Below the pieces are notes generated by a model. It had not been told where the DNA came from. It made no database searches and saw only the letters and a program-made list of their open reading frames with translations. Both the position numbers and the translations under genes were made by a program. From assembly GCA_965203905.1 (NCBI GenBank), contig CBDBDQ010000005.1:1248001-1312000 (forward strand): DNA of 64,000 bases. The letters run 5' to 3'. Source of the DNA: Spirochaetia bacterium. Its GTDB lineage: Bacteria > Spirochaetota > Spirochaetia > SZUA-6 > Bin103. Shown one piece after another: positions 19,673 to 50,507 of the stretch. Within the stretch, counting starts at the first letter, position 1; every line of letters starts with the position of its first letter.

Positions 19673-20108
19673 CACCCTGTGAAGAATTTCGTGAGCAGCA
19701 TGCCTTCCGGCTACACTACCAGGCGATAGACCCAGCGGTGGCCGGGTCCCCTGAGTAGATTTTCGGCACGTAGTGCCGGTTCCTTGACTTTGCCTGCAAC
19801 TCCCCTCCCTGTCGCGCATTACCATAATGACCCACGGGCTGCCAAGTCAAGCACGCCGATTTGCCGGCGAGTCCCGGTGAACAACGCCGCGCAGCGCGCC
19901 CGCTCCGAACCCGTCGAGCACCGCTTAACTATTTTCATAGAACAAGTTGCATCACTCGTCCATGGGTCCCACGATGCTGGCACCTGCCGCGATGGTGCCA
20001 GGCCGCCCACCCTGTCTCCCCGTATTGCGCCGCCGCCCCATGAGGCCCCGGCGGCGGCCGGAGCCGCTCCGCTCGGCGCCGGGCGGTGGTTCTGGTATGT
20101 TGGTGGCG

Positions 20109-20753
20109 ATGCAACCGGTGCCCATGTCGCGGCAAGGTTCAGGTCGCCGGGTTCGCTGCTCCGGGTCGGCAGGAAACGGGAGGGCGGGCGGCGGCCGGAG
20201 CAGGGCGGCCGTCACCCTGTTAGCCGCCCTGCTGACCGCGTGCAGCTTCGAATACTCCGATGCCGACGCATCACCCACGCAACTGCTTGGGCACATACCC
20301 GAAACCGAGCTCACCGAGGTAACCCACACCATCGTACGCAACGGGCGCGTGGCGGCGGAGTTCCGCGCCCGGCAGGTGCGCAACTTCCCCCGCGCGGGGC
20401 GCACGGAGCTGGATGCGGTGAACTACTCCGAATTCGACCGCAATGGCACTCTGGTGACCGCCGGCAACGCCGACCGCGCCGTGTACTTCACTGAGCGCGA
20501 GGACGCCGAGGTGGCCGGCGCGATCCGCCTGCGCTCCCAGTCGCAGGGCGTCTGGCTGGAAGCCGAGACCCTGCGCTGGGAGGATGCCAGCCACCGGCTG
20601 TCCTCCGGCCCCGAGGAGACGGTGGCGGTTACCCGCGACGACGGCTCGCAGGTGACCGGGGTCGGTCTCCAGGTCGACGTGCGCCGCAAGACCATCCGCT
20701 TCTCGGGACCCGTCAGTGGGACCCTGGTCGCGGAAACGAGCGCGGAGGAGTAG
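20109..20753 (+). CDS. lptC: LptC-like LPS export periplasmic lipoprotein, copy 1 (intact)
   Basis: LLTAC-SFEY lipobox; beta-jellyroll pattern ending LEAETLRWED...VTRDDGSQVTGVGLQVD...FSGPVSG, as in spirochaete LptC. Confidence 0.78.
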   Translation: MQPVPMSRQGSGRRVRCSGSAGNGRAGGGRSRAAVTLLAALLTACSFEYSDADASPTQLLGHIPETELTEVTHTIVRNGRVAAEFRARQVRNFPRAGRTELDAVNYSEFDRNGTLVTAGNADRAVYFTEREDAEVAGAIRLRSQSQGVWLEAETLRWEDASHRLSSGPEETVAVTRDDGSQVTGVGLQVDVRRKTIRFSGPVSGTLVAETSAEE

Positions 20754-21362
20754 GCGGGAGGCCGCCGCCGGGAGGCGCGGGCGGGGCGGTGTGCGACCGC
20801 TACGGCAATCGGTCATGCGCGGCAGGCGCCGGCAGCCGAACCCGGCGCGTCGGGACCGCTGGCGTAGTTCATCGTGCGCAACGGTTGGGCGCGGGCTGGG
20901 GGTTGGGGCGCCGGCGGCTTCGCCTATGCCGCCGACGACCATGCCGCTGCCGCCATCACGGAGGCCTACGACACGACCCTGTAATGCCACGCTCCCGCAA
21001 CTCGCGCGAAAGCTCGGTAGTGCCTCATTGTGAATATGGGGAAGGGCAGCAGCCCGGCACTGGGCTGGGCTATTCGTCTTCGTCGGTGGTAAACGGGCTC
21101 TCCAACCCGATGCCGCTTGGTAAAGGAGCCTTCTTGCTTCCGCCGCACGCACCCTTGCGCGGGGCTTGGCGCCAAAGGCATCCAAGTCGCGACGACCTTG
21201 CTCGAAGGCCGTTGCTGAGGCACATAGCTCGCGCTCCATGGCAGGATCTGCGCTTCGAACCCGCGAATGGCAGCATCCGCCGGCGATGAGTAAGTTGCGC
21301 CATCCGCCTCTCCTGATGGATGTATTGGGATGCGCAGGGAGCTGCGACTCGGAGGTACGACC

Positions 21363-22250
21363 TTAACCTTGACGGACTACCATCAGCAGGCGGCAATGAT
21401 CGCTGGCCCCCCACTCTGCCACGCTGTTCATGGCCTTCACGTCGATACTTTCGTGAAAGCCCCGTGAGGCGAACACGTAGTCCAGTTGCCGGTCGGCAGC
21501 TTCGGGGCCGCCCTTGTTCGGGGCGAAGGTCACGACATTTTTGTTGTCAGGCTCCATAAAGGGAGGCACGGGGTCAGCCTGGCGCCCGTTGGGGTGCTGC
21601 GGCCCCAGAAACTCCAGACCCAGCACATTCATCCTGTCCCAAACGGTATGTTCGCGCGCCACGTCCCACTTTGGGTCGTGGCCTGCCTTGGAACCGTAGA
21701 CCATGTTCAGATCGCCAGCCGCAAGTATTCGGTGTGTCGAAGGGTCTACGTTGCCGATAAACGCCGACAAGTCAGAGATTATTCGATGCGCTGATCCGTC
21801 GGGAAACCCTACGCGCCACTTGCTGCCAGTAACCGGGTGCGGCGCGATCCACCGGGCGTACATAGACGCAACGATGAATGGTGGCGTAGCGTGGTCTTTG
21901 GGAATGACCCGCGCCGCCGCCACCGTGCCGATTCCGCTAACGGGAAACTGGTTGAGGCCAGGTACCATGATCGGGCTGATTTGTTTGAACCACTCGACAT
22001 CCACCCGGTCCGAAAGGCGTACCACCATAGCCCAGCGGTCGTACAGGAAATCGAATTGAAGCTTCCACCAGCACGAGTTCCAATAGTTGGCGTTCCAGTG
22101 CTCTACGGGGCCGGTGCAGACTTTCCCGGCAACATCTCCCGGCGGCCGGCGGGCTTCCTGTAGCAGGGCTACGTCCGCGTCCATCTCAAGTAGTTGCCTC
22201 CACGGTTCATGCCAAGCGTTTATGTTCCAACTGACTATCTTGATTCCCAA
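21363..22250 (-). CDS. Endonuclease/exonuclease/phosphatase (EEP) family protein
   Basis: IVSWNI, ALLQE, AAGDLN, LDYVF, SDH catalytic motifs. Confidence 0.9.
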   Translation of the reverse strand: MGIKIVSWNINAWHEPWRQLLEMDADVALLQEARRPPGDVAGKVCTGPVEHWNANYWNSCWWKLQFDFLYDRWAMVVRLSDRVDVEWFKQISPIMVPGLNQFPVSGIGTVAAARVIPKDHATPPFIVASMYARWIAPHPVTGSKWRVGFPDGSAHRIISDLSAFIGNVDPSTHRILAAGDLNMVYGSKAGHDPKWDVAREHTVWDRMNVLGLEFLGPQHPNGRQADPVPPFMEPDNKNVVTFAPNKGGPEAADRQLDYVFASRGFHESIDVKAMNSVAEWGASDHCRLLMVVRQG

Positions 22251-22284
22251 ACGCGCGGCTGCTACGCAATGGCGAGGGCCAGCA

Positions 22285-22445
22285 AGTGCACGTGCCGACG
22301 CCAGGGGACCAGGCGGTGCGCGACTATCCGCGCTGCCGGGACGATCTGCGCCAGGAGCTACGCCGCTATCGGCAGCGGTTGCAGCAAGCCCTGATCCGGC
22401 ATGGCTATGGCTACCGTGGCGGACGCAACTGGACGCAGAGCTGCA
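22285..22445 (+). pseudogene. IS110-family transposase internal fragment
   Basis: HVPTPGDQAVRD...DDLRQELRRYRQRLQQALIRHGYGY...NWTQ resembles the IS110 coiled-coil region. Confidence 0.55.
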
Positions 22446-23065
22446 GAGCTACCGGCGCTGATTGGGAGAGCGTGCTGACAAAGGCACATCTCGGCTTCAC
22501 CTCCTTGGGGGCGAGACCGTGGCGAACCACGTCCGCGATGCCTGGGTGGACGTGGAGTTCAAGCTCTGGCAACGCCGGTTGTCGTAGAACTGGATCAATG
22601 GTCTTCCGGCGGGCGCTTGGGCTGCCGCACCCAAGCGACTCACATGCCGACTTCGGTTGGCCGGCGCGGAGCACTTACCAGGAGTGCGCCATCCCGGATT
22701 CCGCCTGATCAGACCACCTTCGGTAAGCTCCGTGGGCGCTGCGCAGGGGCTATCCAGGTGCGACGCGCGCCGCATGGGGGCGCCGCGCAGGGCGGTGAGA
22801 GCCGGCGCGAACAACCCCTGCAACGGATATACCAACGACAACGGGATCCGTACTGACACTTTGATTACGCCCCACGAGCTTGGTTAGCCGCACCCCGGAT
22901 AGTAAGCGCGCGTTGGCAAGGGTTTCCCCTGCATGGAAGATGCGCCCTTCCAGGTTGCCGTGCAACGGGTCAGTCGATCTTTTTGGATCGTTCCTCTGTA
23001 CTCAACTCTCGCGTGTCGATACCTCGTAACTCATTGAGCTATCTGATTTGCACACACTCCCGTTA

Positions 23066-23953
23066 TTAAGGCAGCGATACCGGCCCGTGAGTCCCACCGC
23101 AGAACAACCCTATCGTACTGAGTTCCACTGTCTCGCCGCCAGCAGGGCAAGTTTGACAGCAGGCTTCGCAGCTTTCAGAGCCGTCGATTCCGACGCCCCA
23201 AATATCGACTCCCCATTCATCCTCTGCTCCAAAACAGACCTTCGCATCTGTTCTACACGCAAGATTGTATGAATCTAATTGGTCCAGGGTATATGCACTA
23301 TCGGGTCCCGGCCACACCAAATCATTGGTTACATCAAAAAACCGTATGTAGTTCTGAAGTGCATCGTCGCAGGCATCCACGAACCACCAGATGATATTCC
23401 CGATGGTGGGGCAGCCAGGCACGCGCCCGCTCACATCGCAACCAGACACGGCAGTCAGATTGACACCTCTCATGTCGGCCCTCCGCAGGTCGGCGTCGGT
23501 CAAGGTGGCGGCCGTCAGGTCCACGCCCGCCAAGTTCGCGTCGCGCAGGTTTACCCTGGTCAGGTCAGCTCCCCGCAGAATCGCGCCAGCAAGATTGGCG
23601 TTATTCAGGTTAGCTCCGGTAAGGTCGGCTCCACTCAGGTCAGCACCACGTAGAACGGTCGAGATCATTCTGGCACCACGCAAGTCGGCTCCGCGCAAGT
23701 CGGCCCCGTCGAGGTCCGTGTTGCTCAGATTCGCGCCAGCTAGGCTCGCTTCTCTGAGGTTGGCCTCGCGCAGATTGGTCCCAGCCAAATCCGCATCGTT
23801 TAGATCTGCACCAGAGCAGTCCGGTAGACATGCAAGTCCCGTTGCTTGCGGGTCTTGAGACGTAGTTGTGGCTACTTCGTCGCATCCGCCTATCACCATG
23901 GCTACCAGAGCCAGCAATGCACCTGCGGTCATCGACATCGGATAGTTTCTCAT
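23066..23953 (-). CDS. Lipoprotein with pentapeptide repeats and a Cys-rich C-terminal domain
   Basis: Lipobox IGG-C; A(D/N)LxxA pentapeptide run; C-terminal WPG...C...C.G...WGVG...CxxCCxxC; GGAG RBS. Confidence 0.88.
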   Translation of the reverse strand: MRNYPMSMTAGALLALVAMVIGGCDEVATTTSQDPQATGLACLPDCSGADLNDADLAGTNLREANLREASLAGANLSNTDLDGADLRGADLRGARMISTVLRGADLSGADLTGANLNNANLAGAILRGADLTRVNLRDANLAGVDLTAATLTDADLRRADMRGVNLTAVSGCDVSGRVPGCPTIGNIIWWFVDACDDALQNYIRFFDVTNDLVWPGPDSAYTLDQLDSYNLACRTDAKVCFGAEDEWGVDIWGVGIDGSESCEACCQTCPAGGETVELSTIGLFCGGTHGPVSLP

Positions 23954-29189: not shown

Positions 29190-29384
29190 GGCGCGAGACC
29201 CAGAAAAGGAAAATCTGCCACGCATCCTAGCGCAAGTTGATCATTTTTTGGAGAAAGGTGGCGAGATTTGGTGGAGATACCGGTGAAAGGAGCGTCTGAG
29301 GGCGAGAAGATCGGTGCCAGCGGACGGATATTTCGCGTGTAGTTATAACTCACATGGATCTACATTTTTGTATGATCCAATACG

Positions 29385-29413
29385 TTGACTCATCTTCACC
29401 CCTTTGGTATCTT
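29385..29413 (+). promoter_or_regulatory. Transposase promoter
   Basis: TTGACT-N17-TATCTT with an extended TG, just upstream of GTG 29422; also conserved in the partial copy. Confidence 0.65.
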
Positions 29414-29421
29414 CCAGGTGC

Positions 29422-35485: not shown

Positions 35486-35515
35486 ACACCTTCTTGCGAT
35501 GACGCAAGAAGGTGT
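35486..35515. other. Perfect 13-bp inverted repeat (hairpin)
   Basis: ACACCTTCTTGCG-ATGA-CGCAAGAAGGTGT. Confidence 0.85.
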
Positions 35516-39605: not shown

Positions 39606-40754
39606 CTATCCATCGTGAAGACGGATAGTCTGTATCAACTCGTCAGCTACTCGGCTTGCCAATTGTCGGCGAACTCCATCTAACTCTTCCTTCGTTCTGG
39701 CTGTGAACTCGCATTGACTACCACCGATCTTTCTTGCCGACGACACCGTCTCCTGGTAGGACGGTGTGAGCTTCGGCGGATCCTGTCCGAACCGTCGTTC
39801 TCTCTCACTCTCGGTATTAAGTTGTGCGACGCGCCGCCGCAATTGTGCGCAATTCGAACAAGTGCGCTCATACGTAACCTCAAATACGACTCCAGCGTTA
39901 TTGTCCTCTTGATCAATCTCAGTAACCTTATGACTACCTATCCATACGACATTTCCTGTGGCTACCTCAATGAGCTTCGCGTCTAAGGAGGCTTGCGCGA
40001 AGTCGCAGTTGTAGTAGCCGAATGACTCGTTGGTGAACTTGGTTTCTACTGCCCGATATTGGTCAGCGAAATCCCTTAGACTAGCATTTGAGAGCAGGTT
40101 AACTGACTCCGATCTTCGTTCAAGCGGAGAGAACTTGCTGATCTGCAAGATGAAATCGGCACGTACTTCCGTTGCACTCGCGGCCCGTATCACTTCCGAA
40201 GTATCAATTAGATGGCCCTGTCCGGCCCTCTCAATCTGTAATTTGCTGCGAAGTTCACGTACACGATCTGCAAACTCATCTTGTGTTATTTCCTCCTTCT
40301 CTAGTTGACTCCGTAGGTCCTGGTATGCCGGTCCAAGAACCGAGTCGTCAGCAAGACCATCGTCGCGTAAATCGCGCAGAATGGCCTCGAACTTGGCTCT
40401 ATCTTTCACAACGAAGCCCCCTACAAGTAGCTGTTTTTCCATCGCTCGCTCAGCAACATTGAAGTATCCGGACGTGCTGAACTCGTCTGCGTTGGTTGCT
40501 TCAGAAGCCTCCGAAGCGACGCGAAGTCTCGGAACGTCTATAACAACGCTACTTCCGCGCAAAATCCTGGCAACGGGCGACGAGACCGAGTTCTCACTGG
40601 CGTCCGAGATCGGGCTGGTAACAAGCCGAAATTCTACTCTTTCTCGCTGGTCTGGATCGTAGCTCGGCATCTTCACGGGCGGCGCCATCGGAGTAGCGCA
40701 ACACATGATCATGATTGCCGCAGGTATCGAGAGGGCTACTTTCAGATTTGGCAT
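39606..40754 (-). CDS. Putative lipoprotein with a CsgG/HfaB-like domain
   Basis: AAGGAG RBS; hydrophobic leader ending IMCC; GFVVKDRAKFEAIL, ADFIL, AKLIEVATGNVVW. Confidence 0.7.
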   Translation of the reverse strand: MPNLKVALSIPAAIMIMCCATPMAPPVKMPSYDPDQRERVEFRLVTSPISDASENSVSSPVARILRGSSVVIDVPRLRVASEASEATNADEFSTSGYFNVAERAMEKQLLVGGFVVKDRAKFEAILRDLRDDGLADDSVLGPAYQDLRSQLEKEEITQDEFADRVRELRSKLQIERAGQGHLIDTSEVIRAASATEVRADFILQISKFSPLERRSESVNLLSNASLRDFADQYRAVETKFTNESFGYYNCDFAQASLDAKLIEVATGNVVWIGSHKVTEIDQEDNNAGVVFEVTYERTCSNCAQLRRRVAQLNTESERERRFGQDPPKLTPSYQETVSSARKIGGSQCEFTARTKEELDGVRRQLASRVADELIQTIRLHDG

Positions 40755-41313
40755 TTGACTCTCCTTGCTAACGCAGTAAGTCTTGGAACTCAACTGCACG
40801 CTGAGTACTTTGTGGGACAGATGTTGCTGCCGCCAGGATCATCGCCACGACCAGCGCGGGTACGGCGGTATGGCGCCCTTGGGCATCTGGGGCGTGGGTA
40901 GGGCCTCACGACGCGACACGACGCGGGTCGGCGGTACAGGGTAGTTGGGCGGGAGAGCGGATGTCTGGGACGGTAGCGGGATAATTGGGAACAGGAGATT
41001 GACCCTGTCGCGAATTCGCACAGGGGGCGCGCGGTGACCAGCCCCGCAGCCTGCGCGGGTTCGGGTTCGCATCCTATGCCTGCTCGCCTTCCCCTCATGC
41101 ACAAGACTCCCTTCCAGCTCGACCCCACGCCCCTCCGCGCCTTGCCTCCGTGCACTCGTGCGGATCAAACGGCCCCACCCGATCAGAATATGCGATCTGG
41201 TGGCGCACTATCCAGGAGATGCAAGTGGACCCGTGTAGCGTTTGAAATTAACTCAGCTGCCCACACCCCGTACCAGCGGCGTCGACCCAACCGAATCTCC
41301 CCGTGAAACCACT

Positions 41314-41865
41314 TCAACCAGGCGGGATAACCACTACCTTTAGGCGGTACCCGGCTATTACGGCCACGCCCGCCTGAATCGCGGATGGCGTACCCGTCAT
41401 CTGGACAGCGATTACACCTTGGCTGTAAGCGTATGTCGTACTGAGAATTACGTTGTCAGAGAACTGGAACACCTCCGGTAGCGCATACCATGATCTACCG
41501 CCACCAAGATCATAGTACGCCTCGACTACTCCAGAGCTGGCCGCTTCCGCGGTTATCTCTGGCACGTTGTACAGTGCCGTGGCGACCTCGCCACTCGCGG
41601 ATATAGAGAAATCGCTGCTGGATATCAGAAACAGACGACTTGCTACGGCAATGCCGGTCTGCCCCGGTTCCCCCTGAGGACCAGAGGGTCCCTGCGGCCC
41701 ACGTGGACCGGTCTGCCCTGGTAGGCCCATCGGACCGCGTTCGCCCTGCTCGCCTTGCGGCCCGGCTGGCCCGCGAGGCCCCTCCATCGGCTCGCACGCG
41801 ACAATCAAAACGGATATGGCGATCGCCGCCAGCACGGCGACCCTTCTTTGTAGCGCAGCTGTCAT
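41314..41865 (-). CDS. Collagen-like lipoprotein
   Basis: Lipobox IVA-C, Gly-X-Y run, C-terminal WYALP...LKVVVIP domain. Confidence 0.88.
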
Positions 41866-42133
41866 TCTGCCCCCTGTGTCCTGGCACGGCACAAAGGTGC
41901 CGAGCCGTCGCAGAGAAGGCCGCCACACCTGACCCACAGCATATCCTTGGTACTCGCTCCCCGGCCGGAGTAGCGACTCCCCGCCGTCTGGAGGTTGTAT
42001 TCGGCCAGTGACCGGCATGACGCGCATCACACTAGCCTCCTCTGCGCCATCAAGGGTAAATGCTTACAGCCGGCTCGTAAAGCAGCAGCCGGAGCGCTTC
42101 GCTCGGCGCAGGTGGTTCTGGTTGTTGGTGGCG

Positions 42134-42778
42134 ATGCAACCCGTGCCCCAGGTCGCGGCAAGGTTCATGTTGCCGGGCTCGCCGCTCCGGATCGGCAGGA
42201 ACGGGACGGCGGGCGGCGGCCGGAGCAGGGCGGCCGTCACCCTGTTCGCCGCCCTGCTGACCGCATGCAGCTTCGAATACTCCGATGCCGACGCAGCACC
42301 CACGCAACTGCTTGGGCACATTCCCGAGACCGAGCTCACCGAGGTAACCCACGCCATCGTCCGCAACGGCCGCGTAGCGGCCGAGTTCCGCGCCCGGCAG
42401 GTGCGCAACTTCCCCCGCGCCGGCCGTACGGAGTTGGATGACGTGCTCTACCACGAGTACGACCGCAACGGCATTCTGGTGACCGTCGGCAACGCCGAGC
42501 GCGCCGTGTACTACACCGAGCGCGAGGACGCCGAGCTGGCCGGCGCGATCCGCTTGCGCTCCCAGTCGCAGGGCGTCTGGCTGGAAGCGGAGACCCTGCG
42601 CTGGGAGGACGCCAGTCACCGGCTGTCCTCGGGCCCGGAGGAGACCGTGGCGGTTACCCGCGACGACGGCTCGCAGGTGACCGGCGTCGGTCTCCAGGTC
42701 GACGTGCGCCGCAAGACCATCCGCTTCTCGGGACCCGTCAGCGGGACCCTGGTCGCCGAGACCGGGGCGGGGGAGTAG
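42134..42778 (+). CDS. lptC: LptC-like protein, copy 3 (intact)
   Basis: Same length as copy 1 from the ATG of MQPVP; shares the upstream leader with copy 1. Confidence 0.78.
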   Translation: MQPVPQVAARFMLPGSPLRIGRNGTAGGGRSRAAVTLFAALLTACSFEYSDADAAPTQLLGHIPETELTEVTHAIVRNGRVAAEFRARQVRNFPRAGRTELDDVLYHEYDRNGILVTVGNAERAVYYTEREDAELAGAIRLRSQSQGVWLEAETLRWEDASHRLSSGPEETVAVTRDDGSQVTGVGLQVDVRRKTIRFSGPVSGTLVAETGAGE

Positions 42779-42974
42779 GCGGGAGGGCGCGCGGCCGGGG
42801 GCCGTGGGGCGTGGCGAGACGGTGTGCCACCGCTTCGACCATCGGTCATGCGCGCGAGGCGCCTGCTACCGAACCGGCTGGTGCTGCGACCGCCGGCGCA
42901 GCGGCGCAGCGCCCGCACCCGGCGTTGCAGCCTGCCGTGAGACGCACGGATGAACCGGCTCGACCACGGAAGGC

Positions 42975-43235
42975 AACGGCGCTGTTCTACCCGGGCGCGG
43001 TGCTGGCGTGGCTGCGCCTGATGGGGGGAGGCGCGGGCCGGCCACTACCTGCTGCTGGTGCTGTTCGCGGCCGGCCTGCTGAGCAAGTCGGTGGCGATGA
43101 CGTTGCCGCTGCTGCTGGTGCAGTGGTGGCGACGTGGCCAGGGTGGCCGGGTGACGCCGGTGGATCTGCTGCGGGTGGCGCCGCTGGTGGTGCTCGGGGC
43201 GGTGATCACGGCGGCCGACCTGGCGTTCTACCGGG
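42975..43235 (+). pseudogene. TMTC-like transferase internal fragment
   Basis: LFAAGLLSKSVAMTLP..LVQWW...RVTPVDLLRVAP...GAVITAADLAF matches about 16060-16315. Confidence 0.8.
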
Positions 43236-43718
43236 GCGGCAACCGCCGCCCCGACGCCGAAGATAGGCGCAGTAAGTGCCTCGCGGTACGCGACCTGGCC
43301 GCCGCTCACGGCTTCGCCGCCGGCGCCAGGTCGCGGCTCGTGTCGTGCAGCCACCAGGGGTCCGCGACGTGGTCGTCCGGGTCCGGCTTCCAGGTCGCGC
43401 CCTCCAGCGCTACCAGGTGCCCGCCTCCGTCCGCCGCGCCCAGTACCTCCGCGCGACCGGCGTAGCGCCAATGCCGTGATGACGCCGCGCCGGGTTCACG
43501 GTTGCTGTGCCCACCGCGGCGCCGTAGCAGGAGGTGCAGCCTCCACGTCATCCGGTGTGCAGGAACTTGGCTCGCCCTCGAAAGCGCCAACGAACGGTGT
43601 CCCGTTGTAACCGGTATGGCTCGCAACTTCTCCAGGCACCTGCCCGGTCGCGCCGGCCGCGGTACGATTCTCGTGGTCACCGCCGCGTGGTATGCTCACG
43701 GGGTCAGGAGGGACCGTG

Positions 43719-44576
43719 ATGGCAAGCTCGGTACTCGCTCCCGCCCAGGTTGAATACCCCTCGTCGGACGGACGACCGGTGGCGGAGAGCGATCACCAGT
43801 TCATCCCGCTGACCTATGCCGCGAACCGGCTGCGGGAACACTTTCGCGAGCGCGAGGACGTGTACGTGGCGGGGAACCTGTTGATCTACTACGAGGAAGG
43901 GACGCAGGCGCGGGTGGCGCCGGACGTGTTCGTGGTGCTGGGTGCGCCGCGGCGGAAGCGAACGAGCTACGTGCTGTGGCAGGAGCCGAAGGCGCCCGAC
44001 TTCGTGCTGGAGGTGACCTCGCGCAGCACGCACGTGGAGGACCAGGGCTCGAAGCGGAGGCTGTACCAGAGGCTCGGGGTGCGGGAGTACTGGCAGTACG
44101 ACCCGACGGGGGACTACCTGGAGCCGGCGTTGCAGGGACTGGAGTTGGTGCCGGGGGAGTACGCGAGGCTGCCGGAACGGGAGCTGGCGGACGGGACGCT
44201 GGTGCTGACGAGCGCGGTGCTGGAGTTGGAGTTGCGGCTGACCGAGCGCGGGCTGCGGTTCCACGATCCGGTGACGGCGCGCGAGCTGCCGGACCTCGGG
44301 GAGACGGACGCGGCCTGGCGGGAGGCCGAGCAGGGGTGGGAGCAGGAGCGCCAGGAACGCGAACGGGCGGAGCAGGAACGCGAACGGGCGGAGCAGAAAC
44401 GCGAGCGGGCGGAGCAGCGGTGGCGCCGGGCCGAGCAGGATCGCCGGCGGGAGCGGGACGCGCGCCATCACGCCGAGCAGGATCGCCGGCGGGAACGGGA
44501 GGCCCGGCAGGCGGCGGAGGCGCGGATCGCCGAACTCGAAGCCAGGCTGCGCGACCGTGATAACTCCGAGCCGTAA
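43719..44576 (+). CDS. Uma2-family PD-(D/E)XK endonuclease with a repetitive coiled-coil tail
   Basis: YPSSDGRPVAES..., VAPDVFVV, PDFVLEVTS.ST...D...K...Y..LGV.EYW.YDP; AGGAGG RBS; TGnTATGCT extended -10. Confidence 0.92.
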   Translation: MASSVLAPAQVEYPSSDGRPVAESDHQFIPLTYAANRLREHFREREDVYVAGNLLIYYEEGTQARVAPDVFVVLGAPRRKRTSYVLWQEPKAPDFVLEVTSRSTHVEDQGSKRRLYQRLGVREYWQYDPTGDYLEPALQGLELVPGEYARLPERELADGTLVLTSAVLELELRLTERGLRFHDPVTARELPDLGETDAAWREAEQGWEQERQERERAEQERERAEQKRERAEQRWRRAEQDRRRERDARHHAEQDRRREREARQAAEARIAELEARLRDRDNSEP

Positions 44577-44696
44577 GCTGCCACCCGTCTGGTTCGAGGT
44601 CGTCATGCCTCGTTGTCGACAGATTAGACAGAGCGGCAGATGATTTGCGTGCGTGCAGCCGTCGGTGCGCTCCAGAATCATGGTCCGAAATGAACT

Positions 44697-44885
44697 CGCC
44701 GTCCCCCGGACCGGCGTCCGGGCCAGGCTCCGGCGTCAAGGTCAGCGTGGCCGCTCCGTAGCACGCCACGCTCCACACCATCAGCCGGTCGTTCATCGCA
44801 TAGCACCCCCAGGGGTAGAGCCCGGTCAGCGTCCAGGCGACCTCCCCGTCGAGCGTGAGCATGACGCGGCCCGTCACCTTGCCCG
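44697..44885 (-). pseudogene. Fragment of an autotransporter-like beta-barrel gene
   Basis: GEVAWTLTGLYPWG.YA...VW.VA.YG.ATLTLTPE. Confidence 0.6.
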
Positions 44886-44888
44886 GGC

Positions 44889-45497
44889 ATGTGCGCCGGG
44901 CAGTCCGGATCGGGAGGAACCGGGAGGGCGAGCGGCGGCCGGAGCAGGGCTGCCGTCGCCCTGTGCGCCGCCCTGCTGACCGCATGCAGCTTCGAATACT
45001 CCGATGCCGACGCATCACCCACGCAACTGCTTGGGCACATACCCGAAACCGAGCTCACCGAGGTAACCCACACCATCGTACGCAACGGGCGCGTGGCGGC
45101 CGAGTTCCGCGCCCGGCACGTGCGCAACTTCCCCCGCTCCGGCCGCACGGAGCTGGATGCGGTGCACTACTCCGAATACGACCGCAACGGCATCCTGGTG
45201 ACCGCCGGCAACGCCGAGCGCGCCGTGTACTTCACCGAGCGCGAGGACGCCGAGGTGGCCGGCGCGATCCGCTTGCGCTCGCAGTCGCAGGGCGTGTGGC
45301 TGGAGGCCGAGACCCTGCGCTGGGAGGACGCCAGCCACCGGCTGTTCTCGGGCCCCGAGGAGACGGTGGCGGTTACCCGCGACGACGGCTCGCAGGTGAC
45401 CGGCGTCGGTCTCCAGGTCGACGTGCGCCGCAAGACCATCCGCTTCTCGGGACCCGTCAGCGGGACCCTGGTTGCTGAAACCGGGGCGGGGGAGTAG
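44889..45497 (+). CDS. lptC: LptC-like protein, copy 4 (replaced 5' end)
   Basis: Intact frame; homology starts near 44905. Confidence 0.72.
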   Translation: MCAGQSGSGGTGRASGGRSRAAVALCAALLTACSFEYSDADASPTQLLGHIPETELTEVTHTIVRNGRVAAEFRARHVRNFPRSGRTELDAVHYSEYDRNGILVTAGNAERAVYFTEREDAEVAGAIRLRSQSQGVWLEAETLRWEDASHRLFSGPEETVAVTRDDGSQVTGVGLQVDVRRKTIRFSGPVSGTLVAETGAGE

Positions 45498-45971
45498 GCG
45501 GGGGCGCGCGGCCGGGGGCCGCTGGCCGCGGGGCGCGGCGAGACGGTGTGCGACCTGTACGAGATCGGTACACGACCCCGCTCTCAGTGCTTGCCTCCCA
45601 AGACTTGGAAGTCGTCTACCTCGAGCTGCTCGGGGAAGCCGGGACCGTATGCCTGCCGTACCACGCGCCCGTGGACGATCACGCTGCGCTGCTGCAGGCC
45701 CCACAGCTCGGTGGTGCTCTCCGACGAGCTCGTAGTACTCGGTGGCAGTGGCGAGCACCAGGATCACGTGGCGATCTGAACCGGTCGTCGTCACCGGTCC
45801 GGTCACCATTATGCCGGAGTCCGAAGGGTCACGATCGACAGGCCAAAGGAGGGCATGGTGGCGGCATCGACATCATCGCGCGTCCGATGGAACAAGATCC
45901 CCAGTCCCCGTTTCCGCCAGCTTGCTTACGTATGCAAAAGCGCTGGCGCACCACTTCCCGTTGTACCGGGT

Positions 45972-47006
45972 ATGGCCGGCGAGATTACCACGCCCCACAA
46001 CAACCTGTTCCGCTCCGTGTTCGGCGACACCGCCGAGGCGTCCGCCCTGCTGCGCGCACATCTGCCCCAGGCGATCAGCCGTCAGTTGCTCTGGTCCACC
46101 CTCGCCTTGCAGCCGGTCGGCTTCATCGACAGCCGCCTGCGCGACAGCGAGTCCGACCTGCTCTACCTGATCCGGCGCAAGACCGACGCCGCGCCGGTCT
46201 GGCTCTACGTCCTGCTGGAGCACCAGTCGACCCCGGACCCCTGGTTGCGCCTGCGCCTGCTCAAGTACAGCATCCGAATCTGGGAACGCGATCGCAGGCG
46301 GCATCGGAACGACAAGCAACTGCGTCCCATCCTGCCTCTGGTGTTGTACCAGGGCAGGCGCCGCTGGCGTCACGGCCGCGAGTTCTCGGAGCTGTTTGCG
46401 CAGCAGGTCCGTCACTGGCCGTGGGTGCCGCATTACGCACACCTCTTGATCGACCAGACCAGGGCACGGCCGCACCAGGTGCGCGGCGAGTTGCGCGGTC
46501 GCATCGCGCAACTCGCGATGATGGCGACGTTCCGGAAAAGCTGGCCCCTGTTGCAGCGGTTGGTGCCGCTGCTGGCGGAGTTGGCACGGGTCGGCGCCGC
46601 CGCCGAGGACTGGGAGGAGATCATCGTGTACATTGCAGCCACGACAACGCGACAACCGCGGCGCTGGCAACGGTTCGCAGACGCGGTCCGGCGGCGCGTA
46701 CCGGGAGGTGCAGAACTGATGAACAAGACTGAACGGATGCGTCAGATCTACGGCGACGTCAGGGAGCAGGAAGGCCGTCGGGAGGGCCACCAGGAAGGCC
46801 GTCGAGAGGGCCGCAAGGAAGGCCGTCGGGAGGGCCGCAAGGAAGGTGAGTTGCGAGGCAAGGTGCTGACCATCGAGGCACTCCTCGGACGAGATGTCCC
46901 CTGGACCACCATCCAAACCGCGACCGGAATCGACCAGGCCACCTTCCACCGGCTCAAGCACCAGCTCGAGGCCGCCGCCGGCAGCAGCCGCCACCACGCC
47001 AACTGA
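45972..47006 (+). CDS. Rpn/YhgA-like recombination-promoting nuclease
   Basis: TPHNNLFRSVF, FID..LR..ESDLLY, YVLLEHQSTPD, PILPLVLYQG, and a C-terminal EGRREG repeat. Confidence 0.92.
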   Translation: MAGEITTPHNNLFRSVFGDTAEASALLRAHLPQAISRQLLWSTLALQPVGFIDSRLRDSESDLLYLIRRKTDAAPVWLYVLLEHQSTPDPWLRLRLLKYSIRIWERDRRRHRNDKQLRPILPLVLYQGRRRWRHGREFSELFAQQVRHWPWVPHYAHLLIDQTRARPHQVRGELRGRIAQLAMMATFRKSWPLLQRLVPLLAELARVGAAAEDWEEIIVYIAATTTRQPRRWQRFADAVRRRVPGGAELMNKTERMRQIYGDVREQEGRREGHQEGRREGRKEGRREGRKEGELRGKVLTIEALLGRDVPWTTIQTATGIDQATFHRLKHQLEAAAGSSRHHAN

Positions 47007-47039
47007 GCCACCCCCGCCACCGGACCACCAGGGAGCCGC

Positions 47040-47130
47040 AACGCCCGGCACCAGCCACGAACGTGCGCCGTAGAAGTACTTCCAGTAGATCGGCCCGTTG
47101 CCGAACGCCAGCCGGTGGCCCGGTTCCACG
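47040..47130 (-). pseudogene. N-terminal GT22 fragment
   Basis: VEPGHRLAFGNGPIYWKYFYGARSWLVPGV matches 52160-52250. Confidence 0.85.
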
Positions 47131-47135
47131 TACAC

Positions 47136-47247: not shown

Positions 47248-47335
47248 GCGTGCCGAAGCGGTACCTGATTCGGCTGCGGCCGGACAGGGCGCCCCCGGCA
47301 TTTAGCCCCGTACAACTCGGCTTGGTGAACCGTAC

Positions 47336-47853
47336 GCCTGCAGCTTCGAATACTCCGATGCCGACGCAGCACCCACGCAACTGCTTGGGCACATACCCGA
47401 AACCGAGCTCACCGAGGTAACCCACACCATATCGTCCGCAACGGGCGCCTGGCAGCCGAGTTCCGCGCCCAGCAGGTGCGCAACTTCCCCCGCGCCGGCC
47501 GCACGGAACTGGATGCGGTGCACTACTCCGAATACGACCGCAACGGCATTCTGGTGACCGCCGGCAACGCCGAGCGCGCCGTGTACTTCACCGAGCGCGA
47601 GGACGCCGAGCTGGCCGGCGCGATCCGCTTGCGCTCGCAGTCGCAGGGCGTCTGGCTGGAAGCCGAGACCCTGCGCTGGGAGGACGCCAGCCACCGGCTG
47701 TTCTCGGGCCCCGAGGAGACGGTGGCGGTTACCCGCGACGACGGCTCACAGGTGACCGGCGTCGGTCTCCAGGTCGACGTGCGCCGCAAGACCATCCGCT
47801 TCTCGGGGCCTGTCAGCGGGACCCTGGTCGCGGAGACCGGGGCGGGCGAATAG
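47336..47853 (+). pseudogene. lptC: lptC copy 5 (5' truncated, frameshift near 47430)
   Basis: Begins at ACSFEY; 2-bp insertion CACCATATCGTC. Confidence 0.8.
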
Positions 47854-48802
47854 GCGGGAGGGCGCGCGGCCGGGGGCCGGGGGGCGTGGCGAGACGGTGT
47901 GCCACCGCTTCGGCAATCGGTCATGCGCGCCAGGCGCCTGCTACCGAACCGGCTGGTGCTGCGACCGCCGGCGCAGCGGCGCAGCGCCCGCACCCGGCGT
48001 TGCAGCCTGCCGTGAGACGCACGGATGAACCGGCTCGACCACGGGACGGCAACGGCGCTGTTCTACCCGGGCGCGGTGCTGGCGTGGCTGCGCCTGATGG
48101 GGGGAGGCGCGGGCCGGCCACTACCTGCTGCTGGTGCTGTTCGCGGCCGGCCTGCTGAGCAAGTCGGTGGCGATGACGTTGCCGCTGCTGCTGTTGCAGT
48201 GGTGGCGACGTGGCCGGGGTGGCCGGGTGACCGGGTGACGCCGGTGGATCTGCTGCCGGTGGCGCCGCTGGTGGTGCTCGGGGCGGTGATCACGGCCGCC
48301 GACCTGGCGTTCTACCGGGGCGGCAACCGCCGCCCCGGCGCCGAAGATAGGCGCAGTACGTGCCTCGCGGTACGCGACCTGGCCGCCGCTCACGGGTTCC
48401 CCGCCGGCGCCAGGTCGCGGCTCGTGTCGTGCAGCCACCAGGGGTCCGCGACGTGGTCGTCCGGGTCCGGCTTCCAGGTCGCGCCCTCCAGCGCTACCAG
48501 GTGCCCGCCTCCGTCCGCCGCGCCCACTACCTCCGCGCGACCGGCGTAGCGCCAATGCCGTGATGACGCCGCGCCGGGTTCACGGTTGCTGTGCCCACCG
48601 CGGCGCCGTAGCAGGAGGTGCAGCCTCCACGTCATCCGGTGTGCAGGAACTTGGCTCGCCCTCGAAAGCGCCAACGAACGGTGTCCCGTTGTAACGGGTA
48701 TGGCTCGCAACTTCTCCAGGCACCTGCCCGGTCGCGCCGGCCGCGGTACGATTCTCGTGGTCACCGCCGCGTGGTATGCTCACGGGGTCAGGAGGGACCG
48801 TG

Positions 48803-49555
48803 ATGGCAAGCTCGGTACTCGCTCCCGCCCAGGTTGAATACCCCTCGTCGGACGGACGACCGGTGGCGGAGAGCGATCACCAGTTCATCCCGCTGACCTA
48901 TGCCGCGAACCGGCTGCGGGAACACTTTCGCGAGCGCGAGGACGTGTACGTGGCGGGGAACCTGTTGATCTACTACGAGGAAGGGACGCAGGAGCGGGTG
49001 GCGCCGGACGTGTTCGTGGTGCTGGGTGCGCCGCGGCGGAAGCGAACGAGCTACGTGCTGTGGCAGGAGCCGAAGGCGCCCGACTTCGTGCTGGAGGTGA
49101 CCTCGCGCAGCACGCACGTGGAGGACCAGGGCTCGAAGCGGAGGCTGTACCAGAGGCTCGGGGTGCGGGAGTACTGGCAGTACGACCCGACGGGGGACTA
49201 CCTGGAGCCGGCGTTGCAGGGACTGGAGTTGGTGGCGGGGGAGTACGCGAGGCTGCCGGAACGGGAGCTGGCGGACGGGACGCCGGTGCTGACGAGCGCG
49301 GTGCTGGAGTTGGAGTTGCGGCTGACCGAGCGCGGGCTGCGGTTCCACGATCCGGTGACGGCGCGCGAGCTGCCGGACCTCGGGGAGACGGACGCGGCCT
49401 GGCGGCGGGAGCGGCAGGCACGCGAACGGGCCGAGCAGCGGTGGCGCCGGGCCGAGCAGGATCGCCGGCAGGAACGGGAGGCCCGGCAGGCGGCGGAGGC
49501 GCGGATCGCCGAACTCGAAGCCAGGCTGCGCGACCGTGATAACTCCGAGCCGTAA
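48803..49555 (+). CDS. Uma2-family endonuclease, copy 2 (shorter tail)
   Basis: Near-identical to 43719-44576; 35 aa shorter in the AEQ(E/D)RER region. Confidence 0.92.
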   Translation: MASSVLAPAQVEYPSSDGRPVAESDHQFIPLTYAANRLREHFREREDVYVAGNLLIYYEEGTQERVAPDVFVVLGAPRRKRTSYVLWQEPKAPDFVLEVTSRSTHVEDQGSKRRLYQRLGVREYWQYDPTGDYLEPALQGLELVAGEYARLPERELADGTPVLTSAVLELELRLTERGLRFHDPVTARELPDLGETDAAWRRERQARERAEQRWRRAEQDRRQEREARQAAEARIAELEARLRDRDNSEP

Positions 49556-50118
49556 GCTGCCACCCGTCTGGTTCGAGGTCGTCATGCCTCGTTGTCGACA
49601 GATTAGATTAGAGCAAGTTAAGGGTTCAGTAGTCGACAGAGCGGCAGATGATTGCGTGCGTGCAGCCGTCGGTGCGCTCCAGAATCATGGTCCGAAATGA
49701 AGCGGTCTCCGAAGACGGCGAAGCCGTAGCCGAGCTTCATCTCGAAGCGGGGGTTCGCGAGCTCCCCGCCGTCGTCGTTCGCCGCAAGCCCGTGGCGTGT
49801 GCGCCGCCCGAGCAGCGCGTCCGCACCGCCGCTCTCCGAGCGCCCCACCGTCTGCGTGAGTGAGCCGGGGCGCCAGCGTGCTCGTGCCGAGGCTGAACGC
49901 GAGAGCCATGTCGGTCGTGAGCGCCTCCCCGTCCCCCGGACCGGCGTCCGGGCCAGGCTCCGGCGTCAAGGTCAGCGTGGCCGCCCCGTAGCACGCCACG
50001 CTCCACACCGTCAGCCGGTCGTTCATCGCATAGCACCCCCAGGGGTAGAGCCCGGTCAGCGTCCAGGCGACCTCGCCGTCGAGCGTGAGCGTGACGCGGC
50101 CCGTCACCTTGCCCGGGC

Positions 50119-50507
50119 ATGTGGGCCGGGCAGTCCGGATCGGGAGGAACCGGGAGGGCGAGCGGCGGCCGGAGCAGGGCTGCCGTCGCCCTGTTCGCCG
50201 CCCTGCTGACCGCCTGCAGCTTCGAATACTCCGATGCCGACGCATCACCCACGCAACTGCTTGGGCACATACCCGAGACCGAGCTCACCGAGGTAACCCA
50301 CACCATCGTCCGCAACGGCCGCGTGGCGGCCGAGTTCCGCGCCCGGCAGGTGCGCAACTTCCCCCGCGCCGGCTGCACGGAACTGGATGCGGTGCACTAC
50401 TCCGAATACGACCGCAACGGCATCCTGATGACCGCCGGCAACGCCGACCGCGCCGTGTACTACACCGAGCGCGAGGACGCCGAGCTGGCCGGCGCGATCC
50501 GCCTGCG
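50119..50507 (+). pseudogene. lptC: lptC copy 6 (3' truncated)
   Basis: Homology stops at AGAIRLR. Confidence 0.8.

What the first reader, a model, noticed from the sequence alone, without database searches (positions are those of the whole stretch)
20050..50507. Seven co-oriented lptC copies punctuate an array of foreign cargo: candidate housekeeping-gene-anchored cassette system
Seen: lptC-like sequence occurs at 20109, 31580, 35310, 42134, 44889, 47336 and 50119, all on the + strand. None is followed by lptA/lptB. Several keep a shared downstream spacer and differ in where homology starts or stops. Between them lie unrelated, often lower-GC genes. Copies 1 and 3 each sit divergently next to a different collagen-like lipoprotein. 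Established: lptC is normally single-copy in an lptC-lptA-lptB operon. Inference: lptC serves as a repeated recombination anchor. Incoming cargo+lptC DNA from relatives would integrate additively, building an integron-like array without attC sites or IntI.
Basis: partly seen in the sequence, partly recalled or inferred. Interest (0 to 1): 0.82.

Follow-up and report, generated by a model that had tools for sequence, protein, structure and literature searches.

The report
Amplified lptC copies in duplication hotspot
A normally single-copy gene for lipopolysaccharide transport (lptC) has been copied about ten times, mostly into decaying copies, inside this genome's most duplication-prone region; this looks like ordinary gene duplication and copy-to-copy exchange, not a new gene-capture system.

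Summary
Seven co-oriented lptC-like stretches lie at the stated places. Three more lie just past the window (about 73.5k, 74.4k and 87.3k in window numbering).

The gene is a true lptC. It passes NCBI's LptC equivalog model, folds like solved LptC, and in same-genus relatives its ortholog sits in an lptC-lptA-lptB operon. It is effectively single-copy in 39 of 40 relatives searched; one incomplete genome showed no match.

Only c1, c3 and c4 are intact. The other copies are frameshifted, truncated or fragments.

The integron-like reading is not supported:
- There is no recombinase within about 600 kb.
- The copies share no common cassette boundary.
- Much of the identifiable "cargo" is the genome's own IS elements, local paralog fragments and one internally duplicated block.
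- All copies cluster together, not with other genomes' copies.

Best reading: birth-and-death amplification by segmental duplication and recombination between copies. The region ranks first and second of 78 bins for local duplication. The copies are mosaics. The one recent duplicated block has both ends inside lptC, so lptC does act as an internal recombination substrate. The case is unusual for lptC, but the mechanism is ordinary.

The parts
20051..20867 (+). lptC copy c1: intact (ORF ending 20753, signal peptide + lipobox LLTAC), plus 114 nt of the shared downstream spacer
   Evidence: TIGR04409 58.1 bits, cut-off 38
31584..32375 (+). lptC copy c2: full length but with a 1-nt deletion frameshift; about 170 nt of spacer
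   Evidence: (two tblastn pieces)
35293..35445 (+). c2b: old, diverged lptC fragment (about 74% nt, 65% aa identity, TAG stop inside) between the IS66 and ISKra4 elements
42082..42964 (+). lptC copy c3: intact; shares 186 nt of upstream sequence with c1 and about 185 nt of spacer with c2, c5 and c8
   Evidence: 57.0 bits
44695..45569 (+). lptC copy c4: intact (ORF 44889-45497); its upstream 286 nt are shared with c6; only 72 nt of spacer
   Evidence: 58.6 bits; LptC fold
47335..48039 (+). lptC copy c5: 5' end lost exactly at the lipobox Cys codon, plus a 2-nt (AT) insertion frameshift
49925..50507 (+). lptC copy c6: intact 5' end, cut off at 50507 after 131 codons
   Evidence: the junction is bridged by a zero-mismatch contig 50473-50926 in run X8
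42262..45277 (+). Duplicated block, first copy: lptC 3' part, spacer, x ORF (a PMT_2-like fragment), Uma2, lptC 5' part. Second copy at 47335-50507
   Evidence: the non-lptC parts are 97.0-99.6% identical, the lptC ends only 93.8% and 96.1%
47335..50507 (+). Duplicated block, second copy; both of its ends lie inside lptC (offset 0 and offset 296)
17976..19394 (-). Collagen-like lipoprotein, divergent from c1
   Evidence: Collagen 46 bits; lipobox-like FAWVAC; motif recalled
41314..42027 (-). Second, different collagen-like lipoprotein, divergent from c3
   Evidence: no nucleotide similarity to the first
29227..31400 (+). IS4-like element (DDE_Tnp_1 transposase 29404-31248); another 100% identical copy lies elsewhere in the genome
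32940..35109 (-). IS66-family element with a broken transposase (split ORFs) and a TnpB_IS66 gene
35998..38517 (+). ISKra4-family IS (DUF4338 'DruA-like' gene + transposase, 353 bits); 4 more 99% copies elsewhere
38974..39332 (-). Inverted partial copy of the IS4-like left end (95% to 29227-29586)
45855..47006 (+). Rpn-family (YhgA-like, Transposase_31) nuclease gene between c4 and c5; paralogs precede c7 and lie upstream of the single lptC in relative G010
   Evidence: TIGR01784 58.3 bits, cut-off 52.1
43692..44576 (+). Uma2-family PD-(D/E)XK nuclease gene (twin at 48776-49555)
47035..47133 (.). Fragment of a GT22 glycosyltransferase gene (88% to 52152-52250), directly before c5
50789..52708 (-). 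Full GT22 (Alg9-like) glycosyltransferase gene after c6; paralogs or fragments at 13125-14270, 26199-26697 and outside the window after c8
21363..23953 (-). Lower-GC genes without close copies in the genome (Exo_endo_phos 21363-22250; pentapeptide 23066-23953, one 71% relative elsewhere); plausibly acquired horizontally
39606..40799 (-). Lower-GC (0.54) unique ORF of 397 aa with no family match

Best explanation
This is the organism's genuine lptC. The family-wide form has a lipoprotein-type N-terminus. In this lineage lptC had already been separated from lptA-lptB. It then became caught in the genome's most duplication-prone zone, roughly window -8k to 119k. There it underwent repeated segmental duplication of different ages: fragments at 70-75% identity, most copies at 88-93%, and the newest block at 97-99.6%. 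Homologous recombination and gene conversion between the co-oriented copies keep them similar and make them mosaic. That same recombination also produces further duplications and deletions whose ends lie inside lptC. Active IS elements and a few foreign genes have inserted between copies. Redundant copies decay, leaving 3 intact and 7 broken. Shown: the gene's identity, the copy number and state of each copy, the lineage specificity, the mosaicism, the lptC-bounded recent duplication, and the hotspot status. Inferred: the order of events, RecA-type recombination as the engine, and any contribution of the neighbouring Rpn or Uma2 nucleases.
For: Identity. TIGR04409 scores 57.0-58.6 bits against a cut-off of 38 for c1, c3 and c4. 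An AlphaFold model (mean pLDDT 75, core blocks 80-92) has solved LptC chains as its top five Foldseek hits (6mit_C, 3my2, 4b54_B, 4b54_A, 6mjp_C; TM up to 0.82). Orthologs in G007 and G001 lie in lptC-lptA-lptB order. Lineage specificity. 39 of 40 relatives have the gene, 37 as one match and 2 as adjacent split pieces; G000 has 13 matches, about 10 copies. Same-genus orthologs are only 46-59% identical, while G000 copies are 82-96% identical to c4. Origin within the lineage. All six G000 copies in the tree form one clade with P0002 (92/90). Copies on other presumed contigs share contig-specific residues. Decay. c2, c5 and c7 are frameshifted, c5 and c6 are truncated, and c2b, c7b and c8 are fragments. 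Exchange between copies. 140 of 253 informative site pairs are incompatible and a PHI-like test gives p=0.02; nearest-neighbour painting switches partner along each copy. In the recent block the flanks are 97.0-99.6% identical but the lptC ends are 93.8% and 96.1%. Hotspot. The two 100-kb bins holding the zone rank 1 and 2 of 78 for local diverged duplication (29% and 21% against a mean of 5%). GT22, PMT_2-TPR, Rpn, Uma2 and He_PIG genes are also duplicated there. Other hotspots amplify other genes. Real DNA. Zero-mismatch short-read contigs bridge copy-specific junctions at 39303-42237, 45443-46043, 50473-50926 and 35079-35819. Homologs 85-91% identical, some of them frameshifted, occur two or three per contig in other assemblies.
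Against: dN/dS between copies is low (0.11-0.50 over 28 pairs, dS 0.07-0.28), even between broken copies. Simple redundancy after in-place duplication predicts relaxed selection. I explain the low values by gene conversion from working copies and by recent decay, but I have not shown this. Most intervals between copies share no detectable similarity, so the large duplications I infer must have been heavily overwritten. That several homologs share a contig in other assemblies rests on identical 'longest contig' lengths and not on contig names. Run X8 may be the sample the genome was assembled from, so the junction support is not independent. No DNA from a close relative (over 85% identity) was available beyond one 1.4-kb contig.
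Confidence: 0.68

Rival explanations
1. lptC is a homology anchor, and circular DNA from relatives carrying lptC plus cargo integrates by single crossover. Each event adds one cargo unit and one more co-oriented lptC, giving an integron-like array without IntI or attC.
For: All copies are co-oriented. Divergence accumulated under purifying selection, as expected if the copies diverged as working single-copy genes in separate lineages. Some intervals hold lower-GC genes without close copies in the genome. One block has both ends inside lptC with overlapping offsets, which is the geometry of a single-crossover insertion. In relatives G010 and G009, lptC is a conserved gene whose upstream side is not syntenic with G000.
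Against: G000 copies form one clade and are not interleaved with copies from other assemblies. The only lptC-bounded block that can be dated is a copy of a neighbouring block of the same array, 97-99.6% identical, so it is not foreign DNA. Much of the identifiable cargo is the genome's own IS elements and fragments of local genes. The copies have native-like GC3 (0.79-0.91). Homology end-points differ from copy to copy. 7 of 10 copies are decayed. No lptC lies on the four small contigs.
Confidence: 0.08
2. Selection keeps several working LptC isoforms. The three intact copies (c1, c3, c4) serve different envelope states, perhaps together with the GT-C glycosyltransferase paralogs (PMT_2-TPR, GT22) and surface lipoproteins duplicated in the same zone. 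The broken copies are by-products. This concerns why copies persist and is compatible with the duplication origin.
For: Three copies keep a start, a signal peptide, a lipobox and a full reading frame. dN/dS among c1, c3 and c4 is 0.17-0.21. c1/c3 and c4/c6 have two different upstream regions, so regulation may differ. Envelope glycosyltransferases and collagen-like lipoproteins are co-amplified. A preprint reports Lpt paralogs used for another lipid in Caulobacter (10.64898/2026.04.12.717747; title and opening of the abstract seen).
Against: The intact copies differ at only about 4-9% of residues. I did not map those differences onto the LptC fold, and most of the variation seen is synonymous. 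Gene conversion alone can hold dN/dS low. No expression data were obtained. A single LptF/G pair and a single LptA/LptB pair are present.
Confidence: 0.15
3. Assembly artefact: strain variants of one lptC locus were strung together by the assembler.
For: The marker-gene estimate reports 7.9% contamination. Reads contain at least one joint that is not in the assembly (46977 to 31636 through a 33-nt linker).
Against: Each copy has private flanks, and five copy-specific junctions are bridged by zero-mismatch short-read contigs. The copies differ in truncation and frameshift state, so they are more than allelic variants. Other assemblies also carry two or three homologs per contig. The whole genome is repeat-rich (13%), which by itself can raise the contamination estimate.
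Confidence: 0.03

Closest known systems
Birth-and-death multigene families made by segmental duplication, homogenised by gene conversion (concerted evolution), in bacterial plasticity zones
   Same: Copies of several ages, mosaic copies, pseudogenes and fragments, co-duplicated neighbours, IS elements between copies, and a location in the genome's top duplication hotspot.
   Different: The amplified gene is lptC, an LPS-transport component that is single-copy in 39 of 40 relatives searched. I found no paper describing multi-copy lptC arrays in two full-text searches (titles and abstract openings read).
Canonical lptC of the lptC-lptA-lptB operon (E. coli YrbK/LptC; structures 3MY2, 6MIT)
   Same: Passes the equivalog HMM, has the same beta-jellyroll fold, and its orthologs in same-genus genomes are operonic with lptA and lptB.
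   Different: It is unlinked from lptAB in this genome and in G010/G009. Its N-terminus is a lipoprotein-type signal, where E. coli LptC has a transmembrane helix (sequence; the E. coli anchor is recalled). There are ten copies.
Integrons (IntI, attI, attC cassette arrays)
   Same: A co-oriented array in which a repeated element separates variable genes.
   Different: No IntI or any tyrosine recombinase nearby, no attC-like site or fixed boundary, the units are not single promoterless ORFs, and the repeated element is an 0.6-0.9 kb gene.
Tandem accretion of integrative islands at one target gene (tRNA/tmRNA or 3' ends of protein genes), which leaves direct repeats of the target
   Same: Co-oriented partial copies of one gene flanking blocks of accessory DNA.
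   Different: No integrase. The copies are not a fixed 3' or 5' segment: some are full length, some 5'-truncated, some 3'-truncated, some internal fragments.

Membership tests
LptC (TIGR04409 / PF06835) | Sequence passes the curated family model | tested here: met
   TIGR04409 58.6, 58.1 and 57.0 bits against a cut-off of 38 for c4, c1 and c3. For PF06835, 5 of 6 ORFs are above the cut-off of 21, and frameshifted c2 scores 19.6.
LptC (TIGR04409 / PF06835) | Beta-jellyroll fold of solved LptC | tested here: met
   Model of c4 from a 21-sequence alignment: mean pLDDT 75.1, ten-residue blocks from residue 51 to 190 at 80-92. The top five Foldseek PDB hits are LptC chains, E 9e-8 to 1e-5, TM (target) 0.63-0.82. 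phmmer against PDB sequences found nothing.
LptC (TIGR04409 / PF06835) | Gene context lptC-lptA-lptB | tested here: not met
   Not met for any G000 copy; lptA-like and lptB lie 4.2 Mb away with no lptC beside them. Met for the orthologs in G007 and G001. In G004 lptC is followed by an lptA-like gene, and lptB was not resolved by my ORF filter. So orthology holds, and the operon was broken in this lineage and in G010/G009.
LptC (TIGR04409 / PF06835) | N-terminal inner-membrane anchor | tested here: inconclusive
   Intact copies and the four relatives' orthologs examined carry a signal peptide ending in a lipobox-like motif (LLTAC, AAAC, GGC) and no plain TM helix. The lipobox pattern is recalled; no predictor was run.
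LptC (TIGR04409 / PF06835) | Binds LptF/G and LptA and passes LPS | not testable with these tools
   No complex prediction or assay was run.
Integron | IntI-type tyrosine recombinase next to the array | tested here: not met
   There are 28 Phage_integrase matches in the genome; the nearest is at C5:1915527, about 600 kb away. The Pfam scans of the zone found none.
Integron | attC-like recombination site at every cassette boundary | tested here: not met
   Homology among units ends at different positions on both sides, and no shared site lies at the boundaries.
Integron | Cassettes of one mostly promoterless ORF | tested here: not met
   Intervals of 1.7-23 kb hold IS elements, genes on both strands and gene fragments.
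Segmental-duplication paralog array with gene conversion | Copies share flanking non-coding DNA and co-duplicated neighbours | tested here: met
   Upstream 186 nt shared by c1 and c3; 286 nt shared by c4 and c6; downstream spacer shared by seven copies; x-Uma2 co-duplicated.
Segmental-duplication paralog array with gene conversion | Mosaic copies (recombination signal) | tested here: met
   140 of 253 site pairs fail the four-gamete test; PHI-like p=0.02 on six copies (c6 and c8 left out as partial). Painting. The lptC ends are more diverged than the flanks of the same duplicon.
Segmental-duplication paralog array with gene conversion | Copies of one genome group together against other genomes | tested here: met
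   The clade of G000 copies plus P0002 has support 92/90.

The most novel reading that the evidence does not exclude
The co-oriented lptC copies work as a built-in, RecA-type shuffling scaffold. Recombination between any two copies would excise the DNA between them as a circle carrying one hybrid lptC, and such a circle could re-enter at any other copy. Envelope genes, nuclease/defence genes and acquired genes would then be duplicated, lost and reordered at high frequency within the population. This would be a homology-driven functional analogue of a cassette array that needs no dedicated recombinase. The x-Uma2 block, whose ends lie at lptC offsets 0 and 296, and the read joint that is absent from the assembly would be traces of this.
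Probability: 0.2. Interest if true: 0.65.

Novelty: new member of a known kind. Interest (0 to 1): 0.36.

Why it matters
lptC is treated as a single-copy, essential part of the LPS export machine. A lineage with three intact and seven decaying copies, unlinked from lptAB, shows that even such a gene can enter a birth-and-death cycle when it lands in a recombination hotspot. It offers a natural test of whether LptC dosage or isoforms are tolerated. It also warns annotators and completeness estimators that duplicated housekeeping genes in repeat-rich genomes need not mean contamination. For genome evolution, it is a clean example in which gene conversion hides the age of duplicates and keeps broken copies looking selected. 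It does not reveal a new gene-capture system.

Tried and rejected
1. Native lptC beside lptA-lptB: none was found upstream of the lptA-like gene at C5:5504040-5504804.

2. Origin of the shared flanks. The downstream spacer is not derived from the ancestral lptC-downstream DNA: only 18-34 nt chance-level matches to G000 118.3-120.4k or to the G010/G009 downstream regions. There were no upstream matches, and no fragment of the 118.9k gene lies inside the zone.

3. Druantia. The 'DruA' Pfam hit is a DUF4338 gene of an ISKra4 element. The PADLOC DruA scores are only 16-18 bits, and none of the 13 cargo proteins scanned gave any other Druantia-type match.

4. DNA context from close relatives.

5. 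phmmer of c4 against PDB sequences: no match at E up to 1.

6. Earlier scan notes: nothing by place or by sequence.

7. Flank alignment of all copies in one MAFFT run was too noisy to read boundaries; BLAST end-points were used instead.

8. Habitat.

9. Parts of the laid stretch with low or zero contig depth in X1 and X10 (for example 39.7-41.7k) are not interpreted.

10. A simple unequal crossover between c3 and c4 does not explain the c5-c6 block, because Rpn and a GT22 fragment lie between c4 and c5. A fixed-att integrative-island model was rejected because the copy end-points differ.

Full report
**Observation**

The window is G000:C5:1248001-1312000 of an 8.0 Mb, 66% GC genome in five contigs. 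The homology spans are:
- c1 20051-20867
- c2 31584-32375
- c2b 35293-35445 (a diverged fragment)
- c3 42082-42964
- c4 44695-45569
- c5 47335-48039
- c6 49925-50507

The family continues past the window (coordinates in window numbering):
- c7 at 73467-74187
- c7b at 74356-74534, a 70% identical 3' fragment
- c8 at 87343-87810, a 3' fragment

tblastn with c4 finds nothing else in the genome; the next hit has E=0.12. All six Pfam LptC matches in the genome lie in this neighbourhood.

**Is it lptC?**

Yes, on four lines of evidence.
- The three intact copies score 57.0-58.6 bits on NCBI's LptC equivalog model TIGR04409, cut-off 38.
- Pfam LptC is passed by 5 of 6 ORFs.
- A model of c4 built from a 21-sequence alignment (mean pLDDT 75.1, core 80-92) has solved LptC chains as its top five Foldseek matches: 6mit_C, 3my2, 4b54_B, 4b54_A and 6mjp_C, with target TM 0.63-0.82. 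LptA and LptD chains come next.
- In same-genus genomes G007 and G001, the ortholog is followed directly by the orthologs of G000's lptA-like and lptB genes. In G004 it is followed by the lptA-like gene.

In G000 itself, lptA-like and lptB sit at C5:5503264-5504804 with no lptC beside them, and lptF/lptG sit at C5:5560487-5562804. In G010 and G009, whose flanking genes are the most similar to G000's (82-93% aa), lptC is also separate from lptAB. Their lptC is followed by the orthologs of G000 genes at window 118914-120270. So the ancestral slot lies about 31 kb past c8. No lptC remnant was found there.

**Copy number in relatives**

Of 40 relatives searched (10 same genus, 13 same family, 17 same order), 39 have the gene. 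In 37 it is one match. In G011 and G034 there are two adjacent pieces of one gene. G003, 76% complete, has none. G000 has 13 matches, which is about ten copies. Same-genus orthologs are 46-59% identical to c4. G000's own copies are 82-96% identical to it. The amplification is therefore specific to this lineage.

In the large protein collection, 77 proteins match at E <= 1e-10. The 85-91% identical ones come in groups that share one 'longest contig' length:
- 16258: P0001 and P0002
- 59300: P0004 and P0005
- 14450: P0007 and P0062
- 65789: P0008, P0066 and P0073

Several of these are visibly frameshifted or truncated. More distant homologs (66-76%) on long contigs appear singly. I take this as evidence that decaying multi-copy arrays recur in the closest relatives.

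**State of the copies**

Reading each copy in three frames and aligning the nucleotides gives:
- c1, c3 and c4 are intact, with a basic N-terminus, a hydrophobic stretch and a lipobox-like LLTAC.
- c2 has a 1-nt deletion.
- c5 begins exactly at the Cys codon and has a 2-nt insertion.
- c6 stops being lptC at 50507.
- c7 has two 1-nt deletions.
- c8, c2b and c7b are fragments.

That makes three intact copies and seven decayed ones. The orthologs in G010, G009, G007 and G001 have the same lipoprotein-type N-terminus. The lipobox pattern itself is recalled, not computed.

**What lies between the copies**
- c1 to c2: an Exo_endo_phos gene, a pentapeptide-repeat gene, an M28 peptidase fragment, GT22 fragments, unknown ORFs, and an IS4-like element. 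That element has another 100% identical copy elsewhere in the genome.
- c2 to c3: a broken IS66; c2b; an ISKra4 element (DUF4338 gene plus a transposase at 353 bits, with four more 99% copies elsewhere); an inverted IS4-like end; a unique low-GC ORF; and a collagen-like lipoprotein gene.
- c3 to c4 and c5 to c6: the same block, a PMT_2-like fragment 'x' plus a Uma2 nuclease gene.
- c4 to c5: an Rpn-family nuclease gene and a 99-nt GT22 fragment.
- After c6: a full GT22 gene.

Rpn, Uma2, GT22, PMT_2-TPR, He_PIG and collagen-like genes all recur in the zone. Rpn-like and Uma2 genes also lie just upstream of the single lptC of G010. No tyrosine recombinase lies nearer than about 600 kb, out of 28 matches genome-wide. 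The shared downstream spacer ends after about 72 nt (c4), 114 nt (c1), about 150 nt (c7) or about 185 nt (c2, c3, c5, c8). The upstream homology is of two kinds, c1/c3 and c4/c6. So there is no common unit boundary.

**How the copies relate**

A maximum-likelihood tree had 27 rows: six G000 copies, 17 of the 77 database proteins, and four relatives. c6 and c8 were left out as partial. It places all G000 copies with P0002 in one clade (92/90), unresolved inside, apart from the other assemblies' proteins. Copies assigned to one foreign contig share contig-specific residues.

Nei-Gojobori estimates over 28 pairs, using codons 31 onward with indel columns removed, give dS 0.07-0.28 and dN/dS 0.11-0.50. 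The values are low even between broken copies.

Among six full-length copies, 514 ungapped columns hold 85 variable sites and 23 informative sites. 140 of 253 informative site pairs fail the four-gamete test, and a PHI-like permutation gives p=0.02. Nearest-neighbour painting changes partner along each copy. For example, c3 matches c7 over offsets of roughly 100-200 and matches c4/c5 elsewhere; c1 matches c4 at the 5' end and c8 at the 3' tail.

The most telling result concerns the block 42262-45277 and its twin 47335-50507:

| Segment | Identity between the twins |
|---|---|
| spacer | 98.2% |
| x ORF | 97.8% |
| intergenic | 99.6% |
| Uma2 N-terminal part | 99.4% |
| Uma2 C-terminal, repeat-rich part | 97.0% |
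| Uma2-to-c4 interval | 98.4% |
| lptC end, c3/c5 | 93.8% |
| lptC end, c4/c6 | 96.1% |

lptC sequence has therefore been exchanged with other copies since that recent duplication, or the duplication was itself made by recombination inside lptC. The block begins at lptC offset 0 and ends at offset 296, so both of its ends lie in lptC.

**Genomic setting**

13% of C5 is repeated at 200 bp or longer and 80% identity or higher. The two 100-kb bins holding the zone rank first and second of 78 for local diverged duplication, at 29% and 21% against a mean of 5%. Other hotspots amplify other genes in the same co-oriented way: an ABC-transporter permease unit at least six times at 6.63-6.68 Mb, and a UvrD-like helicase gene at 2.82-2.85 Mb. 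Arrays of paralogs are a habit of this genome and are not special to lptC.

**Is the assembly sound?**

Ten public runs hold part of 41500-51000. I laid Logan contigs from four of them on 31001-51000. In X8, zero-mismatch contigs bridge these junctions:
- 39303-42237: unknown ORF, collagen-like gene, c3
- 45443-46043: c4 into Rpn
- 50473-50926: the c6 break into GT22
- 35079-35819: c2b with both flanks
- 32397-32881: the region just downstream of c2

In X9, one contig bridges 32140-32539. X8 may be the source sample, so this is a consistency check and not independent proof. No single contig spans two copies.

Contigs in X8, X9 and X10 join the Rpn 3' end (46977) to an lptC 5' region (31636) through a 33-nt linker that is absent from the assembly. 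X1 joins an lptC 3' part (42685) to 50675 through 36 other letters. So related populations carry other arrangements of this array.

**Explanation**

The simplest account that fits all of this is a birth-and-death process:
1. lptC was already detached from lptAB and lay beside Rpn and Uma2 nuclease genes.
2. It was duplicated repeatedly together with pieces of its surroundings.
3. The co-oriented copies recombine and convert one another. This explains the single clade, the mosaics, the low dN/dS of broken copies, and the lptC ends that are older-looking than their own flanks.
4. IS elements and a few foreign genes have landed between copies.
5. Surplus copies are being lost.

I put this at about 0.68. 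The import model is at about 0.08, selection for several working isoforms at about 0.15 (compatible with the duplication origin), and an assembly artefact at about 0.03. A role for the Rpn nucleases rests on adjacency alone. Two abstracts describe them as promoting RecA-independent recombination (PMC5350276) or as toxin-antitoxin anti-phage defence (10.1101/2023.05.02.539157); I saw the search listing and the openings of the abstracts only.

**Comparison and novelty**

The array works like any set of direct repeats in a recombination-proficient cell, and so only loosely like a cassette array. It fails each integron criterion I tested: recombinase, attC-like sites, and cassette form. It also lacks the integrase and the fixed repeat of tandem island accretion.

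It is a new example of a known kind, a duplication-and-conversion paralog array, and what is unusual is which gene is amplified. Two full-text searches found no description of multi-copy lptC arrays: 'lptC, paralogs, duplication' returned 5 papers, and 'lptC, multiple copies' returned 14 with 10 listed. I read titles and abstract openings only.

The boldest reading still open is that the copies serve as a homology scaffold that shuffles the intervening genes through circles. I give it 0.2.

Noticed in passing
window 44889-45497 (also c1, c3; L016-L019 orthologs): LptC here, and in the four relatives whose orthologs I translated, has a lipoprotein-type signal (lipobox-like LLTAC / AAAC / GGC). 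E. coli LptC has a plain transmembrane anchor (recalled). A lipid-anchored LptC may be the norm in this order.
   Followed up: partly
G000 C5:5503264-5504804 versus window; L016, L017: lptC is unlinked from lptA-lptB in G000 and in relatives G010 and G009, but operonic in G007 and G001. Between G000 and G010/G009, lptC is only 59-65% identical while the neighbouring conserved genes are 82-93% identical, so lptC evolves unusually fast in this group.
   Followed up: partly
window 29227-39332: A 10.1-kb segment bounded by 360-bp inverted repeats (29227-29586 and 38974-39332, 95% identical; these are ends of the IS4-like element). It encloses c2, a broken IS66, c2b and an ISKra4 element, which is composite-transposon-like geometry.
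   Followed up: no
window 46977 and 31636 (reads of X8, X9, X10): Public-run contigs join the Rpn gene's 3' end to an lptC 5' region through a 33-nt linker that is absent from the assembled genome. This is a structural variant or an unassembled further copy.
   Followed up: partly
G000 C5:6630751-6680316; C5:5035548-5075121; C5:2822674-2853316: Other local paralog arrays: a 1.3-1.8 kb unit containing an ABC-transporter permease gene repeated at least six times co-oriented at 80-95% identity; a 1.3-2 kb unit repeated four times, one copy inverted, with no Pfam match; and UvrD-like helicase genes duplicated at 80-87%.
   Followed up: partly
window 2385-4655, 15605-17317, 54462-56828; 13125-14270, 50789-52705: Three PMT_2 + TPR (ArnT-like GT-C) glycosyltransferase genes and several GT22 (Alg9-like) genes or fragments are co-amplified in the same zone as lptC. 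This hints at diversification of envelope glycosylation.
   Followed up: no
window 44343-44509 and 49406-49488: The C-terminal part of both Uma2 genes holds 21-nt tandem repeats encoding an E/R/Q-rich low-complexity tail. The repeat number differs between the two twins: 105 gap columns in that segment.
   Followed up: no
window 4663-12737: Two very large minus-strand ORFs (954 and 1754 aa) with internal repeats of about 350 bp period at 69-74% identity (6007-8470). They were not characterised.
   Followed up: no
window +113788 to +114885 (C5:1361788-1362885): A ceramidase-family ORF (32.1 bits, just under the Pfam cut-off of 32.5) lies in the same variable zone. This may be of interest given a preprint on Lpt paralogs and sphingolipid transport (10.64898/2026.04.12.717747; abstract opening only).
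   Followed up: no
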